Positions 8,592-12,606 are shown, numbered from the stretch's first letter. The stretch is DNA of 64,000 bases from a virus (IMGVR_UViG_3300012974_000008:4409-68408); one strand, 5' to 3'. The notes: a model not told the origin generated them from the sequence alone. A program made the numbers and translations.

Positions 8592-9671
8592 TTAGGCGGG
8601 ATGGCGAAGCACTGACAGCTGCGCGTGCGAGGCCTTCACTTCCCAGCCACCGATGCCGCCCACGCGGGAGATGACAACGAAGACTTTCCCTGCATTGCCG
8701 GTGTGGTTGGCGGGGACGACACCGACATAACTGCCCGGTGCTGTGGACGTGCTCGGACTGGAGTTGGTGCTGAAGTGTGGGGTCAAGGTCACCATCTGGT
8801 CACCCCACCCCGCGAGTGCGACCCCCTTGGCGACGGTGGTTCCGTCATTGGCTGCTCCAGTGCCGCCGACGCGTGCCTCGATGGCCATCTGGGAGGTGTT
8901 GAACTGGTTGACGATGAAGTGTCCGGTGATATAGAGAGCCGTGGGGAACGAGAGGGGCTCGAGTGGCAGCTCCGCGAGGACTCGGTGGCTGTCGGTCAGC
9001 TGCGCGCCGGTGTTGGAGAATGCCGCCGAAGGGAGCGAGTAGTGCCGGATCGTCGGTGCCGAGCCGGGATACCAGCGCCCGGTGCTGGCGCTGTAGGTCA
9101 GCACCGCGCCGTCGGCGGGGGGTGTCGAGTTGTTGTAGTCGGTCGCGGCCGTGATCGCCGCGGCCGGTCCGGTGTCGCCCTTGGGGCCCGGGACCGCGGG
9201 GATGCCGATGTGAAGGACCTGCGAGCCGGCCGGGCCGGTGAGGCTGGCGACAGGCTCGTCGTCCTTGTGTAGGGTCTCGATCGAGACTCCGCTGAGTCCG
9301 CCCGGGGGGCCCTCGGGGCCTTGGGCGCCGAAGGCGTCCTGGAAGACCACCCAGTACGAGCCCGACCAGTAGTGCATGTCGTTGGTGTCGACGTTCCGAT
9401 ACGCCTTGCCGGCGTCGGAGGCTCCGAGCTGGAGGGCGGCAATATGCGCGCCAGTACGGTCCCCCATGTGCAAGAACGGAACCGCCGCATCGCCCTTGTC
9501 CCCCTTCGGGCCGCGCTGGCCACGGGGTAGCTCGATCATTCCTTCGCCGGGGGTCACCGAGATCGACAGGTGCCGCAGCGGCAGGCCTTCGTTGTCGTCG
9601 ACCGCATAGACGCGGATCGTGGGGTGAAGAACGTCTACCGGTTCACCGAAAAGGTCATTGTAGGAGGGCAT
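8592..9671 (-). CDS. Minor tail protein with short collagen-like segments
   Basis: MPSYNDLFGEP..., GQRGPKGDKG and GPKGDTGP repeats. Confidence 0.75.
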   Translation of the reverse strand: MPSYNDLFGEPVDVLHPTIRVYAVDDNEGLPLRHLSISVTPGEGMIELPRGQRGPKGDKGDAAVPFLHMGDRTGAHIAALQLGASDAGKAYRNVDTNDMHYWSGSYWVVFQDAFGAQGPEGPPGGLSGVSIETLHKDDEPVASLTGPAGSQVLHIGIPAVPGPKGDTGPAAAITAATDYNNSTPPADGAVLTYSASTGRWYPGSAPTIRHYSLPSAAFSNTGAQLTDSHRVLAELPLEPLSFPTALYITGHFIVNQFNTSQMAIEARVGGTGAANDGTTVAKGVALAGWGDQMVTLTPHFSTNSSPSTSTAPGSYVGVVPANHTGNAGKVFVVISRVGGIGGWEVKASHAQLSVLRHPA

Positions 9672-10120
9672 TACCGGTCCTCGAGGGTTGGGCGATGATG
9701 GGCTCGGTCGCCGCGCTGCATGTAGATCAGCGCAGCGAGCATGACCGCGTAGGCGACGGCGCCGCCGGCGTAGATGGCGAGTCGCAGGTAGTCGCGGCCG
9801 GGGTAATAGCCGACGACCACCGATGCCGAGGATGTGGACACCGACAGGGACACCTGTATGAGCACCGCGGAAAGGAAGACGCTCTTGGCCATGAAGATCC
9901 ATCCAATCTGGTTCTTCCAGAACGGCGACCGTGCGGCGTAGAAGGCCGTGAATGTGATCACCAGGACGGTCATCACCACGAGCGATATGTTGCCCCACGC
10001 GCGCAGACTGTTACTGGGCAGAATGAACGCCAGGATGGCGACGACGAGCGCGGTATACCCTGCGACCCCTATAGCGGAGGAATGCCTGAGTATCGCCCGA
10101 CTTCGTTGTCGGAGACTCAT
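9671..10120 (-). CDS. Multi-pass membrane protein (lysis cassette)
   Basis: About 4 hydrophobic helices; GGAGG RBS. Confidence 0.75.
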   Translation of the reverse strand: MSLRQRSRAILRHSSAIGVAGYTALVVAILAFILPSNSLRAWGNISLVVMTVLVITFTAFYAARSPFWKNQIGWIFMAKSVFLSAVLIQVSLSVSTSSASVVVGYYPGRDYLRLAIYAGGAVAYAVMLAALIYMQRGDRAHHRPTLEDR

Positions 10121-10332
10121 GCCACCTCCCAAGCAGCTTGCAACATTTCGGTGAATCCGTTCTTCTCGAGGTGCGCGCGCCGGATCCGCTCGTTGTTGAT
10201 GCGGGTTTGCTCGGCATTGGCCTGAGCTATCTCCAGCTGCTTCTCCACTACCTTTTCGGCCTTCTCGTAACGGTCAACCTGACTCTTCGCGGCAGCCAGT
10301 TCGCGCCGGTCTCGGCGAAATGGTGACCTCAT
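10117..10332 (-). CDS. Small coiled-coil protein (lysis cassette)
   Basis: Overlapping start/stop with both neighbours; heptad-like sequence. Confidence 0.65.
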   Translation of the reverse strand: MRSPFRRDRRELAAAKSQVDRYEKAEKVVEKQLEIAQANAEQTRINNERIRRAHLEKNGFTEMLQAAWEVA

Positions 10333-10631
10333 GTCTCACGCATCCGATCCTCGTAGACGTCCCGGATCGATTGCAGGACATGGTCTGTCACTTGTGCACG
10401 TGCATTGTTCTCCGAGATTGTCTGCGCCTGCACGTGGTTGACCTCCGCGAGCTTCTCGATCAGCTTGTTGGCCTTCTCGAGGGCGCGATCCTTCTCGGCC
10501 ACGATCTCCTTGTGGCTCGGGCCCAGCACCAGCCAACCGCGAATGAAGCTGAGTGCATGGAGCCCGAACACCACGATCATGAAGGCAACGATGCCTACGT
10601 CGTTCCATGTGTCCGGGTTCCACGCGTTCAC
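10329..10631 (-). CDS. Membrane protein (lysis cassette)
   Basis: N-terminal TM helix VGIVAFMIVVFGLHALSFIRGWLV plus coiled coil. Confidence 0.7.
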   Translation of the reverse strand: MNAWNPDTWNDVGIVAFMIVVFGLHALSFIRGWLVLGPSHKEIVAEKDRALEKANKLIEKLAEVNHVQAQTISENNARAQVTDHVLQSIRDVYEDRMRET

Positions 10632-11035
10632 TCGAGCACGGGTGCCTTCTGGGCCTCAGCTGGCTGCTGGCCCTGCGTGAATGCGGAGGTGGTCGGGGTG
10701 TTGCCGGCCGCGGCACCGCCTGCAACGCCGCCGAGGATCGTGGAGATCAGCGGCATCCACACGTCGAGCTCGCCGCCGTGCAGGATCCCGTATCCGACGA
10801 GCACGGCCTGGCCGGCGGTGAGTAACGCATAGAACGCTGCACGGAAGGTGTTCACCCCACGCGCCATGAAGAAGGCGATCACCGGGCCGAGGATCGCGGT
10901 CACCAGACCCGACCAGAGCGAGGCTTCGTTGTCGGTCAGCGCGCCATTGGTGACGAGGAATGCCGTGAGGACGGGCAGGATCACATAGAGGAACGCTCTG
11001 AGGTCGGACCAGGATCGAATGGTAAACACGTTCAT
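10628..11035 (-). CDS. Holin
   Basis: Four short TM segments, directly downstream of the endolysin. Confidence 0.75.
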   Translation of the reverse strand: MNVFTIRSWSDLRAFLYVILPVLTAFLVTNGALTDNEASLWSGLVTAILGPVIAFFMARGVNTFRAAFYALLTAGQAVLVGYGILHGGELDVWMPLISTILGGVAGGAAAGNTPTTSAFTQGQQPAEAQKAPVLE

Positions 11036-11041
11036 GGTGAT

Positions 11042-11968
11042 TCAGCCCTTCGAGATGTCGGAGATGTCGATGTCGAGCTTGGCGGCGATGCGCTGCGAGA
11101 TCAGATTTGCCTCGCGGGCGTTGGCGTGAGCGGCGATGAGGAATCGGACGGGTGAGCCGAACTTTCCTTCGTCGAGCCGCGGGTCAGCGACCTCGCTGGT
11201 GTAGCCGTCGAAGACGAGCTCGTTCCAGATGTCCATGAGCATCGCACGCACGTAGGCGAGCTTCTTGCCGGCCTTGGCGAGATTCGCGTTGCCGGCGACG
11301 TTGTACAGGTCGGGATGTCGCAGCGGGCGGGGGCCCACCACTCGGTCGTCGGCATTCTTGGCTGCCTTGTCGATGTGGGCGTCGCCCATCTGGATTGCGG
11401 CGCCGACGATCTTGTTGACGTCGGTGTCAGAGATTGCGGCCATGGGACCGGCCTCCTCTTCCTTGGTTTGTTCGGTGATGAGGCGTCCGTTTCGGATGCG
11501 CCGATTGCAGAAGTCGATGAGCTTCTGTGATGCTCCTGTGCCGGAGCTGGTTCCCGCGTTGAGCTGGTAGTGCATTTCGTCGGCTCGCGACCAGTCGGCA
11601 CCCCAGAAGATGTTGCCCTCGAAGAGCTTGAGCCCCTCCCGGATCTTGGCCTTGCGCGCGTTCGGCATGACTCGCTGGCCCCAGGGGTACTGGGTGGCGT
11701 TGATGTCGACCGCGGTGCCACTGAGGTGATTGCTCGTCGCGACGTCGTTGGTGGCCGACCAACCCCAGTCGTCGGTGGGCTTGTACTTGTCGATGGGCTC
11801 GACGTTCTCGTGGTACCAGTGCAGCCACGCCTCGAGCACCGTGGCTGCATGGCCGGATCGAACGCGGAGCTTCATGCCGGCGACGGTGACAACCACCGTC
11901 TCGTCGGCGTTGCACATCCGCCAGCCGTTCTCCGACCAGTCGTGGCCGTAGATTCTGCGGAAACTCAT
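11042..11968 (-). CDS. Endolysin, M15-type (L-Ala-D-Glu-like) peptidase plus C-terminal domain
   Basis: DDWGW..SNHLSGTAVDIN..DEMHYQL zinc-peptidase motifs. Confidence 0.88.
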   Translation of the reverse strand: MSFRRIYGHDWSENGWRMCNADETVVVTVAGMKLRVRSGHAATVLEAWLHWYHENVEPIDKYKPTDDWGWSATNDVATSNHLSGTAVDINATQYPWGQRVMPNARKAKIREGLKLFEGNIFWGADWSRADEMHYQLNAGTSSGTGASQKLIDFCNRRIRNGRLITEQTKEEEAGPMAAISDTDVNKIVGAAIQMGDAHIDKAAKNADDRVVGPRPLRHPDLYNVAGNANLAKAGKKLAYVRAMLMDIWNELVFDGYTSEVADPRLDEGKFGSPVRFLIAAHANAREANLISQRIAAKLDIDISDISKG

Positions 11969-12606
11969 GATGGACTCCCGATGTGAGGATCGCCCACCTG
12001 GCGGGCGGCGGCGATGACCAGACGCATCTGCTCATCGGTGAAGTTGGCGAACGGTTCCTTCTTGACTGGCGCCGCGGGCACATCCGGCTTGGTCAGTGCG
12101 CCATAGCCTTTGGGGGTGATGTTCACGCACAGCAGGTCGGCACTCATCCACCAGTGCTCCACGCCGCTGAAGCGGGCGCTGTCAGAGACGTAGATGCGCT
12201 TCTTGTCGGTATCGATGCCCACCGCGGTGACGTAGTGCATGATCAGATCCCACGGGTAACCCGGTGGTCGGGTGTTTCCCTGGGCCCAGATGTTGATCGG
12301 CATCGCCCGCCGCGAATGGGCGATCGTGCCGACCGCGTGCTTCCAGAACAAGTCCTTCTGCGCCTGCGTCGGCGTGTTGCCCTGCATGTAGTGGGCGCCG
12401 TATGCCCGGCCGGTGCGGCGGGTCAGGACTGAGTTGATCTGCCTGACGTCGGCGGTGCCGTTGACATTCGTGCCGCACTCGCGCTCCATGAGCGCCTCGG
12501 TGACAGTGATGCCGTATGTGGAAAGGACCACCTTGGCCGTTGACGGGCCGCAGGTGTAACCCTTCTGCTGAGCATGGTAGGTGTGTGGCAGGATGACAAC
12601 ACCCAT
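11965..12606 (-). CDS. Endolysin component, C39-like cysteine peptidase
   Basis: QQKGYTCGPSTAKVVLS (Gln/Cys), HYVTAVGID, YVSDS; 4-bp overlap with the M15 lysin. Confidence 0.85.
   Translation of the reverse strand: MGVVILPHTYHAQQKGYTCGPSTAKVVLSTYGITVTEALMERECGTNVNGTADVRQINSVLTRRTGRAYGAHYMQGNTPTQAQKDLFWKHAVGTIAHSRRAMPINIWAQGNTRPPGYPWDLIMHYVTAVGIDTDKKRIYVSDSARFSGVEHWWMSADLLCVNITPKGYGALTKPDVPAAPVKKEPFANFTDEQMRLVIAAARQVGDPHIGSPS

What the first reader, a model, noticed from the sequence alone, without database searches (positions are those of the whole stretch)
11042..12606. Possible three-subunit endolysin assembled through a shared docking helix
The C39 peptidase ends in FANFTDEQMRLVIAAARQVGDPHIG. 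The M15 lysin contains MAAISDTDVNKIVGAAIQMGDAHID, with 9 of 25 identities including AAxQxGDxHI. That internal Met (ATG 11443) has a strong SD, GAGGAGG at 11458-11452, 8 nt upstream, predicting a separate 133-aa C-terminal product that starts exactly at the shared helix. Internal starts that make free binding-domain subunits are known (CTP1L, Lys170), and split lysin A is known in Gordonia phages. A common helix linking two different catalytic chains and a free C-terminal subunit into one hetero-oligomer would be a new arrangement (inference).
Basis: partly seen in the sequence, partly recalled or inferred. Interest (0 to 1): 0.75.

Follow-up and report, generated by a model that had tools for sequence, protein, structure and literature searches.

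The report
Split phage lysin with shared docking helix
In this Gordonia phage the cell-wall-cutting enzyme is split into two genes. The piece that lacks a wall-binding domain ends in a conserved copy of the first helix of its partner's binding domain. The same rule held in all 29 split lysins examined, which suggests the pieces reassemble into one multi-chain enzyme.

Summary
The C39 lysin (12606..11965, minus strand) ends in a ~24-residue helix that matches the first helix (H1) of the C-terminal domain (CTD) of the adjacent M15 lysin (11968..11042). BLASTP gives 10/25 identities, E=8e-4. ATG 11443 is preceded by GAGGAGG, the strongest Shine-Dalgarno (SD) site of 267 internal in-frame ATGs in the window.

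The pattern is general. In all 29 split actinophage lysins examined, the first gene ends in a copy of the start of the partner's CTD. This holds across C39, M23, NlpC/P60-like, M15 and amidase catalytic domains and across at least five CTD families. The tail is under purifying selection and co-varies with its own H1 (p=1.5e-4).

In five phage groups (Sixama, Lilbeanie, GMA2, Aleemily and a metagenome contig) the CTD is a separate gene. It begins within about one helical turn of the internal Met, and both catalytic genes end in near-identical tails.

The internal Met is present in 22 of 24 fused partners. A good SD (-10 kcal/mol or better) is present in 17 of the 23 scored.

Best reading (about 0.6): a non-covalent multi-chain endolysin held together by tail/H1 pairing, with a likely free CTD made from the internal start. 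Physical assembly is untested. I found no paper describing this. First readers of this scan noted the same motif in five other genomes.

The parts
11965..12606 (-). lysin A gene 1: C39-like cysteine peptidase, 213 aa
   Evidence: Pfam Peptidase_C39_2, E 2.9e-11. PHROG 6007 endolysin, E 2e-101. AF2 model pLDDT 89.7. Foldseek hits to PCAT1/ComA C39 domains, phytochelatin synthase and PeiR. 82-87% identical to 'lysin A, protease C39 domain' of Smoothie and Cucurbita.
12094..12606 (-). C39 catalytic domain (residues 1-171)
   Evidence: Pfam match 10-144. AF2 secondary structure ends with strand 163-171, pLDDT above 90.
12052..12093 (-). Pro/Ala-rich linker (residues 172-185)
   Evidence: No secondary structure in the AF2 model, with pLDDT falling to 68. 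Fast-evolving: dN 0.7-2.6 in distant pairs.
11980..12051 (-). C-terminal tail ('stub', residues 186-209): copy of the first helix of the partner's C-terminal domain
   Evidence: BLASTP to M15 residues 175-199, E 8e-4. AF2 helix 191-204. Conserved in relatives, with dN lower than the catalytic domain in distant pairs. Profile hit E 1e-14.
11975..11979 (-). GGGAG, SD of the M15 gene, inside the last codons of the C39 gene (6 nt before ATG 11968)
   Evidence: Read from the sequence. Predicted pairing -6.9 kcal/mol.
11042..11968 (-). lysin A gene 2: M15 L-Ala-D-Glu peptidase fused to a C-terminal domain, 308 aa
   Evidence: Pfam Peptidase_M15_4, E 2.2e-11, residues 77-135. PHROG 1512 (residues 1-199) and PHROG 9506 (residues 180-302), both endolysin. 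Annotated homologues in about 70 Gordonia phages.
11489..11968 (-). M15 catalytic domain (about residues 1-160)
   Evidence: Pfam and PHROG ranges. A separate mosaic module: Archis, Barco and Melba share only this part at the DNA level.
11452..11458 (-). internal Shine-Dalgarno GAGGAGG
   Evidence: Sequence. -15.1 kcal/mol, the best of 267 internal in-frame ATG contexts. Equivalent GGAGG-type sites lie 6-11 nt before the homologous Met in 17 of 23 related partner genes.
11441..11443 (-). in-frame internal ATG (Met176), predicted secondary start
   Evidence: The Met is conserved at this position in partner genes but absent at the matching position of the tails.
11369..11443 (-). H1, first helix of the C-terminal domain (residues 176-200)
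   Evidence: Predicted helix 181-195 in a low-confidence model. Profile hit E 1e-13.
11042..11443 (-). C-terminal domain, putative wall-binding; equals the predicted 133-aa internal-start product
   Evidence: PHROG 9506, E 6.5e-23. Found only behind M15, GH19 and GH25 catalytic domains of lysins. No Pfam, PDB or Atlas match.
10628..11035 (-). holin directly downstream
   Evidence: Pfam Phage_holin_9, E 5.8e-19; PHROG 565 holin.

Best explanation
This is a split lysin A whose chains reassemble without a covalent link. The M15 gene encodes a complete lysin: a catalytic domain, H1 and a C-terminal (presumed wall-binding) domain. The C39 gene encodes a catalytic domain with no binding domain of its own, followed by a short amphipathic helix that is a paralogue of H1.

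Inferred mechanism: the tail pairs with H1, or with an element next to H1, of a CTD-bearing chain. This tethers the C39 peptidase to the binding domain and rebuilds the classic three-part actinophage LysA from separate chains.

Ribosomes probably also start at ATG 11443 and make a free 133-aa H1-CTD. That product could serve as the C39 chain's own binding subunit, or could build a larger oligomer as in CTP1L or Lys170.

Shown: the homology, conservation, selection and co-variation of the tail; conservation of the internal Met and SD; and the existence of relatives with the CTD as a separate gene.

Inferred: physical pairing, stoichiometry, use of the internal start, and wall binding by the CTD.
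For: (a) Generality. In all 29 split systems examined, the first gene ends in a copy of the beginning of the partner's CTD. There were 24 short tails, one 46-residue copy (Horus) and 4 whole-CTD copies (Francois, L020, L021, Archis). The first-gene domains include C39, M23, NlpC/P60-like and M15. A fused LysA (Amgine) has the motif only once, at the CTD start.

(b) The tail follows the CTD family. Tail-versus-partner scores are 184 (Horus), 125 (Francois), 75 (Sixama) and 72 (Hedwig) for own partners, against about 20-30 across families. Close C39 orthologues (~60% identity) carry different tails.

(c) Selection. dN/dS of the tail is 0.03-0.55 in most pairs. In distant pairs, tail dN is 0.25-0.30, catalytic domain 0.41-0.84 and linker 0.7-2.6.

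(d) Co-variation. Within the window's CTD family, own-pair tail/H1 similarity exceeds cross-pair similarity (BLOSUM 40.1 vs 28.7; permutation p=1.5e-4). Nucleotide identity is only ~0.5, so this is not recent gene conversion.

(e) Natural three-gene versions. In Sixama, Lilbeanie, GMA2, Aleemily and contig L018, the C39 gene and the second catalytic gene both end in near-identical tails, and a free ~125-aa CTD gene begins with an H1-like element. The tail type is the same although the CTD core differs (Horus-type vs Fury-type), which points to pairing with H1 rather than the core.

(f) Internal start. See the observation check. In addition, the second catalytic genes of Sixama and L018, which carry only a tail, have no SD there (-2.2 and -6.2). 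Gly-Gly linkers use the rare GGA codon (9-25% of Gly codons) in every lineage, which creates GGAGG.
Against: - No physical evidence exists. AlphaFold-multimer is not available here, and the monomer model of M15-CTD failed (pLDDT 40.7), so the position of H1 in the domain is unknown.
- The C39 model gives the tail helix pLDDT of about 81 falling to 60. I could not inspect contacts, so packing back on the C39 domain is not excluded.
- Wall binding by this CTD is only assumed from its position.
- Two metagenomic relatives (L023, L024) have tails but no internal Met or SD.
- SpeedDemon, Bantam, Horus and L025 have weaker SDs (-7 to -9).
- Glu/Gly-rich linkers tend to encode purine-rich DNA anyway.
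- Co-variation could come from occasional gene conversion (Francois 0.81 and Horus 0.73 nucleotide identity).
- The sample is dominated by Gordonia phages, and many are related.
Confidence: 0.6

Rival explanations
1. The tail is an autonomous minimal targeting element. H1 itself binds something in the envelope (wall polymer, membrane or holin). The C39 chain keeps just that element and acts alone, with no heteromer.
For: H1-like elements head several unrelated CTD cores and travel independently of the core, so H1 looks like a module in its own right. The tail is an amphipathic helix. The tail is retained even where the internal start is absent.
Against: It does not explain free CTD genes that have no catalytic domain, sitting next to two tail-only enzymes. 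It does not explain why the tail follows the partner's CTD family and co-varies with its own H1.
Confidence: 0.2
2. The tail packs back on its own catalytic domain, as a stabilising or auto-inhibitory cap, and its likeness to H1 is only historical.
For: The AF2 model places a helix at 191-204 with moderate confidence (pLDDT about 81 to 60).
Against: The same kind of tail sits on four unrelated catalytic folds: C39, M23, NlpC/P60-like and Amidase_2/GH. Its sequence follows the partner's CTD, not the fold it is attached to.
Confidence: 0.08
3. The tail is a neutral footprint of how split lysins arise. It would be left by duplication of the CTD followed by truncation, or by module insertion through recombination at the conserved H1 sequence. 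Alternatively it is kept only for expression of the downstream gene.
For: Intermediate stages exist: whole-CTD copies (Francois, L020, L021, Archis) and a 46-residue copy (Horus). The last four codons of the C39 gene carry the SD of the M15 gene.
Against: There is purifying selection at the protein level while synonymous sites are saturated. The tail is better conserved than the catalytic domain across deep divergence. It was present in 29 of 29 systems. The SD covers only 5 nt of the 72-nt tail.
Confidence: 0.07
4. The internal ATG is not used. The Met and the purine-rich stretch are conserved for protein reasons, as a hydrophobic helix cap and an acidic/Gly linker, and only two chains exist.
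For: Linkers rich in Glu and Gly encode GAG/GGA runs. L023 and L024 lack the start. There are no proteomic data.
Against: The Met is absent from the homologous tails. The rare GGA codon is chosen in all Gly-Gly linkers. There is no SD where only a tail follows. Free CTD genes start at nearly the same point. This is the strongest SD among 267 internal ATGs.
Confidence: 0.3

Closest known systems
Split 'lysin A, protease C39 domain' + 'lysin A, L-Ala-D-Glu peptidase domain' of cluster CQ Gordonia phages (Smoothie, ClubL, Bachita, Culver)
   Same: Same two genes, same order, holin downstream, 77-82% DNA identity. The split itself is already noted in the literature (PMC5559632, PMC10868165, PMC9671378).
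   Different: These papers only record the split and state that its contribution to lysis is unknown (PMC9671378). I found no mention of the shared tail/H1 motif or of the internal start.
Endolysins with an internal translation start that yields a free wall-binding domain and a hetero-oligomer (CTP1L, CD27L, Lys170, LysIME-EF1, LysP7951; PMC4777826, PMC7098653, PMC9430671)
   Same: An in-frame start with an SD lies exactly between the catalytic and C-terminal domains, and the predicted product is the C-terminal domain alone.
   Different: In those enzymes there is one gene and one catalytic chain, and oligomerisation runs through the binding domains. Here a second catalytic chain, from another gene, carries a copy of only the first helix. 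There is no sequence relation. The 2022 survey (PMC9430671) covered mycobacteriophages but mentions no Gordonia phage.
PlyC of streptococcal phage C1 (PlyCA + PlyCB from separate genes; Nelson et al. 2006, cited in PMC3111421)
   Same: It is a multimeric lysin whose catalytic and binding functions are encoded by separate genes. The three-gene relatives (Sixama, Lilbeanie, GMA2, Aleemily, L018) have this logic. From my own knowledge, the plyC operon also has an endonuclease-like gene between its two genes, as Smoothie has an HNH gene between its two lysin genes.
   Different: There is no homology. In the window the binding domain is still fused to one catalytic chain. The proposed docking is by a duplicated helix, not by a ring of binding subunits.
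Ms6 LysA (Lysin384/Lysin241) and Pollywog LysA of mycobacteriophages (PMC3111421, PMC9430671)
   Same: An actinophage LysA with an experimentally shown in-frame second start.
   Different: There the start lies between two catalytic domains, so the short product keeps an enzyme domain. Here it lies after the last catalytic domain.
Three-domain mycobacteriophage LysA (N-terminal peptidase, central hydrolase, C-terminal C1-C3 motifs; Payne & Hatfull 2012, PMC3314691)
   Same: The same parts list: an N5/C39-type peptidase, a second hydrolase and a C-terminal putative wall-binding domain. The fused Amgine LysA has an H1-like element with Met and GGAGG at the CTD start.
   Different: It is a single chain, with no H1 copy after the N-terminal peptidase.

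Membership tests
Split lysin A of Gordonia phages (C39 gene + M15 gene) | Two adjacent co-oriented genes, each with one catalytic domain, next to a holin | tested here: met
   ORFs 12606..11965 and 11968..11042 with an ATGA overlap; holin at 11035..10628.
Split lysin A of Gordonia phages (C39 gene + M15 gene) | Peptidase_C39_2 fold in gene 1 and Peptidase_M15_4 in gene 2 | tested here: met
   Pfam E 2.9e-11 and 2.2e-11. AF2 plus Foldseek confirm the C39 fold.
Split lysin A of Gordonia phages (C39 gene + M15 gene) | Orthology to annotated lysin A genes of cluster CQ phages | tested here: met
   16 phage records cover at least 80% of the 2.1-kb query at 77-80% identity, annotated as lysin A C39 / L-Ala-D-Glu peptidase.
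Two-polypeptide endolysins from one gene (internal translation start) | In-frame start codon with an SD between the catalytic and C-terminal domains | tested here: met
   GAGGAGG, 8 nt, then ATG 11443; best of 267 internal ATGs; conserved in relatives.
Two-polypeptide endolysins from one gene (internal translation start) | A second, shorter polypeptide is actually made | not testable with these tools
   Needs SDS-PAGE and mass spectrometry of infected or expressing cells.
Two-polypeptide endolysins from one gene (internal translation start) | Full-length and short products form a hetero-oligomer | not testable with these tools
   No multimer prediction is available, and the monomer model of M15-CTD was unusable (pLDDT 40.7).
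PlyC-type multimeric lysin | The binding subunit is encoded by its own gene | tested here: not met
   In the window the CTD is fused to the M15 domain. No free-standing member of this CTD family was found among 1.8 billion representatives. The feature is met only in relatives with other CTD families.
PlyC-type multimeric lysin | Homology to PlyCA/PlyCB | tested here: not met
   The CTD has no PDB sequence match at E up to 10, and its Pfam domains differ.
Proposed tail/H1 docking system of split actinophage lysins (defined here) | A first-gene catalytic chain without a CTD ends in a copy of the start of the partner's CTD | tested here: met
   Window. Seen in 29 of 29 systems.
Proposed tail/H1 docking system of split actinophage lysins (defined here) | The tail binds H1-CTD physically | not testable with these tools
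   Only indirect support: selection, co-variation and the three-gene modules.

The most novel reading that the evidence does not exclude
Actinophage lysins carry a small portable docking module. A ~22-residue helix at the C-terminus of any catalytic domain pairs with the matching first helix of a wall-binding domain. This would let several enzymes encoded by separate genes share one binding subunit, whether that subunit is fused, made from an internal start, or encoded by its own gene. It would work like a cohesin/dockerin system for phage lysis enzymes and would explain how and why lysin A genes split.
Probability: 0.5. Interest if true: 0.8.

Novelty: new variant of a known kind. Interest (0 to 1): 0.7.

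Why it matters
Split lysin A genes are common in Gordonia and other actinophages, and the literature states that their contribution to lysis is unknown (PMC9671378).

- A conserved tail that mirrors the partner's binding domain gives a concrete, testable answer: the pieces are not independent enzymes but chains of one assembly.
- It would extend multimeric endolysins beyond PlyC and the single-gene internal-start cases, to a system where two or three different catalytic chains share a binding domain through a short duplicated helix.
- It would supply a natural, very small non-covalent connector for engineering lysins against mycolata (Gordonia, Mycobacterium, Rhodococcus).
- It would improve annotation. 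The ~125-aa 'hypothetical proteins' of Sixama, Lilbeanie, Aleemily and relatives are free lysin binding subunits.
- Internal starts are likely in many LysA genes.

Tried and rejected
- AF2 of the full M15-CTD with a 12-sequence alignment gave pLDDT 40.7 and was unusable for tertiary contacts. No multimer tool is available, and both fold jobs are used.
- A scan of viral contigs for CTD relatives found nothing.
- The ESM Atlas gave no usable hit.
- PDB sequence searches with two CTD types gave nothing meaningful.
- The word-indexed homologue search for the CTD gave only 8 proteins. The exhaustive search gave 6 representatives, so this CTD family is tiny and a deep alignment is impossible.
- RNA structure around the internal start is not significant (z -0.83), so no structural switch is proposed.
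- Recent gene conversion as the source of the likeness is rejected for the window's family (nucleotide identity ~0.5). It is possible for Francois and Horus.
- A fused C39-M15 product by frameshifting at the ATGA overlap was considered only by eye. I saw no slippery site at 11965-11980 and did not pursue it.
- Other tail-bearing proteins in the genome: none in the 68.4-kb contig.
It was redone from references.
- In CherryTomatoes the tail/H1 likeness is weak (score 29). It is counted as a weak case.

Full report
**What is there.** The window is a Gordonia phage of the Smoothie/ClubL (cluster CQ) type. A 2.1-kb query across the region matches 72 Gordonia phage records, 16 of them over at least 80% of its length at 77-80% identity. 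The genes under the match are annotated 'lysin A, protease C39 domain', 'lysin A, L-Ala-D-Glu peptidase domain' and holin.

On the minus strand:
- The C39 gene is 12606..11965 (213 aa).
- The M15 gene is 11968..11042 (308 aa). The two overlap by ATGA.
- A holin follows at 11035..10628.
- The C39 protein folds confidently (pLDDT 89.7) into a papain/C39-like domain. A Pro-rich linker and a helix at residues 191-204 follow.
- The M15 protein has a Peptidase_M15_4 domain, a Glu/Gly linker and a 133-residue C-terminal domain (CTD). The CTD matches only a PHROG of endolysin C-termini.

- C39 residues 185-209 align without gaps to M15 residues 175-199 (10/25 identical, E 8e-4 for the pair).
- GAGGAGG (11458-11452) lies 8 nt before ATG 11443.
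- Its predicted pairing with the 16S 3' end (-15.1 kcal/mol) is the strongest among 267 internal in-frame ATGs of likely coding ORFs in the window.
- It is stronger than the sites at the annotated starts of the C39 gene (-9.5) and the M15 gene (-6.9).
- A profile of the motif finds only these two copies in the whole 68.4-kb contig.

**The tail is a general rule of split lysins.** I compared 29 split systems. They comprise 17 with a C39 first gene from the phage collection, four from prophage or metagenome contigs, Archis, four with other first-gene enzymes, and three more three-gene modules.

In every case the first gene ends in a copy of the beginning of the partner's CTD:
- 24 have a short tail of about 22-25 residues. 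CherryTomatoes is a weak case.
- Horus has 46 residues.
- Francois, L020, L021 and Archis have a whole second copy of a small CTD (Pfam Rv3766_C in two of them).

The tail always aligns to the first residues of the partner's CTD, and it follows the CTD family:
- Scores against the own partner are 184 (Horus), 125 (Francois), 75 (Sixama) and 72 (Hedwig), against 20-30 across families.
- C39 domains that are ~60% identical carry quite different tails or whole CTDs.
- Tails also occur on M23 peptidases (L024, L025) and NlpC/P60-like peptidases (L023, L026) that precede GH25- or GH19-CTD genes of the window's CTD family.
- A fused mycobacteriophage LysA (Amgine) has the element once only, at the CTD start, and nothing behind its C39 domain.

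**The tail is selected, not a relic.**
- Synonymous sites between relatives are near saturation, while the tail's dN/dS is mostly 0.03-0.55.
- In distant pairs the tail (dN 0.25-0.30) is better conserved than the catalytic domain (0.41-0.84), and far better than the linker (0.7-2.6).
- Within the window's CTD family, a tail resembles its own genome's H1 more than other genomes' H1 (mean BLOSUM 40.1 vs 28.7; permutation p=1.5e-4).
- Nucleotide identity between tail and H1 is only ~0.5. This looks like co-evolution or old, occasional homogenisation rather than recent conversion.
- Only the last four codons overlap the SD of the M15 gene (GGGAG, 11979-11975), so expression constraints cannot explain the other 20 codons.

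**Natural three-gene versions.** Five groups have the order C39 gene, second catalytic gene (amidase or glycosidase), a ~125-aa gene annotated hypothetical, then (in four of them) a cysteine protease gene and the holin. The groups are Sixama, Lilbeanie, GMA2, Aleemily and metagenome contig L018.
- Both catalytic genes end in near-identical tails.
- The small gene is a free CTD that begins with an H1-like element.
- It is homologous to CTDs that are fused in other phages: Fury-type in Aleemily and L018, Horus or cluster-K type in Sixama, Lilbeanie and GMA2.
- The tails are of one type although the CTD cores are of two types. This argues that the tail's partner is H1 rather than the core.
- A binding domain with no enzyme, next to two enzymes with no binding domain, makes sense only if they associate.

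**The internal start.**
- Of 24 partner genes with a fused CTD, 22 have a Met at the head of H1. The homologous position of the tails never does.
- Predicted SD pairing is -10 kcal/mol or better in 17 of the 23 scored. It usually ranks among the best few of ~300 codon positions in the gene.
- Where only a tail follows (the second catalytic genes of Sixama and L018) there is no SD (-2.2 and -6.2).
- In Gly-Gly linkers the rare GGA codon (9-25% of Gly codons locally) is used in all lineages, which creates GGAGG.
- Free CTD genes start four residues from the internal Met in ungapped register.
- Against: L023 and L024 lack the start, four phages have weaker sites, and acidic/Gly linkers are purine-rich anyway.
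- I put use of the start at about 0.7.

**Mechanism proposed.** The tail is an amphipathic helix with a 3-4 hydrophobic seam and a small-residue face (Ala/Gly run). H1 has the same pattern; this is read from the alignments. The simplest model is helix-helix pairing between the tail and H1 of a CTD-bearing chain. That would tether the C39 peptidase to the binding domain. The free CTD from ATG 11443 would provide extra docking and binding units. Pairing, stoichiometry and wall binding are inferences.

**Comparison with what is known.**
- The split itself is known (PMC5559632, PMC10868165), and its role is stated to be unknown (PMC9671378).
- Internal starts that yield free binding domains and hetero-oligomers are known in Firmicute phages. 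In-frame second starts are known in Ms6 and Pollywog, where they lie between catalytic domains (PMC4777826, PMC7098653, PMC9430671, PMC3111421).
- PlyC is a lysin built from separate genes.
- I found no paper describing a duplicated first helix on CTD-less lysin chains, or free CTD genes in actinophages (six literature searches). Absence from this library is not proof.
- First readers of this scan recorded the same motif and start in five other genomes. These are unverified notes and are not independent evidence.

**Verdict.** The feature is real and general, and most likely functional. It is a new variant of multimeric or internal-start endolysins. Confidence in the docking mechanism is about 0.6.

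Noticed in passing
L001:3639-4100 (Gordonia phage Smoothie); absent at window 11965-11968: Smoothie, and by their DNA match pattern also Lozinak and Engineer, have an HNH endonuclease gene inserted exactly between the C39 and M15 lysin genes. In the window the two genes overlap by ATGA. From my own knowledge this resembles the intergenic endonuclease-like gene of the plyC operon.
   Followed up: partly
L011:4181-4867, L027:2869-3531, L028:2869-3537, L029:2881-3558: In the three-gene lysin modules a fourth gene, a ~220-aa 'cysteine protease', follows the free CTD gene and precedes the holin. It has no tail of the shared type at its C-terminus. Its role in lysis is unknown.
   Followed up: partly
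window 11975-11979: The SD of the M15 gene (GGGAG) lies inside the last codons of the C39 gene. Part of the conservation of the extreme C-terminus (Gly-Ser/Ala) may therefore reflect translational coupling.
   Followed up: partly
window 9671-10631: Three more small genes follow downstream of the holin: PHROG 4511 (100 aa), DUF7620 (71 aa) and a Phage_holin_2 protein (153 aa). The lysis cassette therefore has two holin-like proteins. The same set recurs in L018 and L020.
   Followed up: no
window 11965-12606 vs PHROG 6007: The C39 protein matches positions 211-422 of a 483-position PHROG profile. Some members of that family must therefore carry about 210 extra N-terminal and 60 extra C-terminal positions. 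These could be fused forms or whole-CTD forms.
   Followed up: no
P0016, P0025, L020:3001-3744, L021:3001-4445: The small ~60-residue CTD on some C39 orthologues and their partners is the Pfam family Rv3766_C (PF27131), named after a Mycobacterium tuberculosis protein. This lysin module therefore also occurs in host proteins.
   Followed up: no
whole contig (G000, 68,408 bases): The assembly holding the window is a single 68.4-kb contig, whereas the nearest phages are 91-94 kb. The genome is probably incomplete, and lysin B was not seen in it.
   Followed up: no
L017:2501-4204 (Mycobacterium phage Amgine LysA): A fused three-domain LysA also has a Met with GGAGG 11 nt upstream at the start of its CTD (-11.3 kcal/mol, rank 8 of 559). 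Internal starts that yield a free CTD may be widespread in mycobacteriophage LysA genes too.
   Followed up: partly
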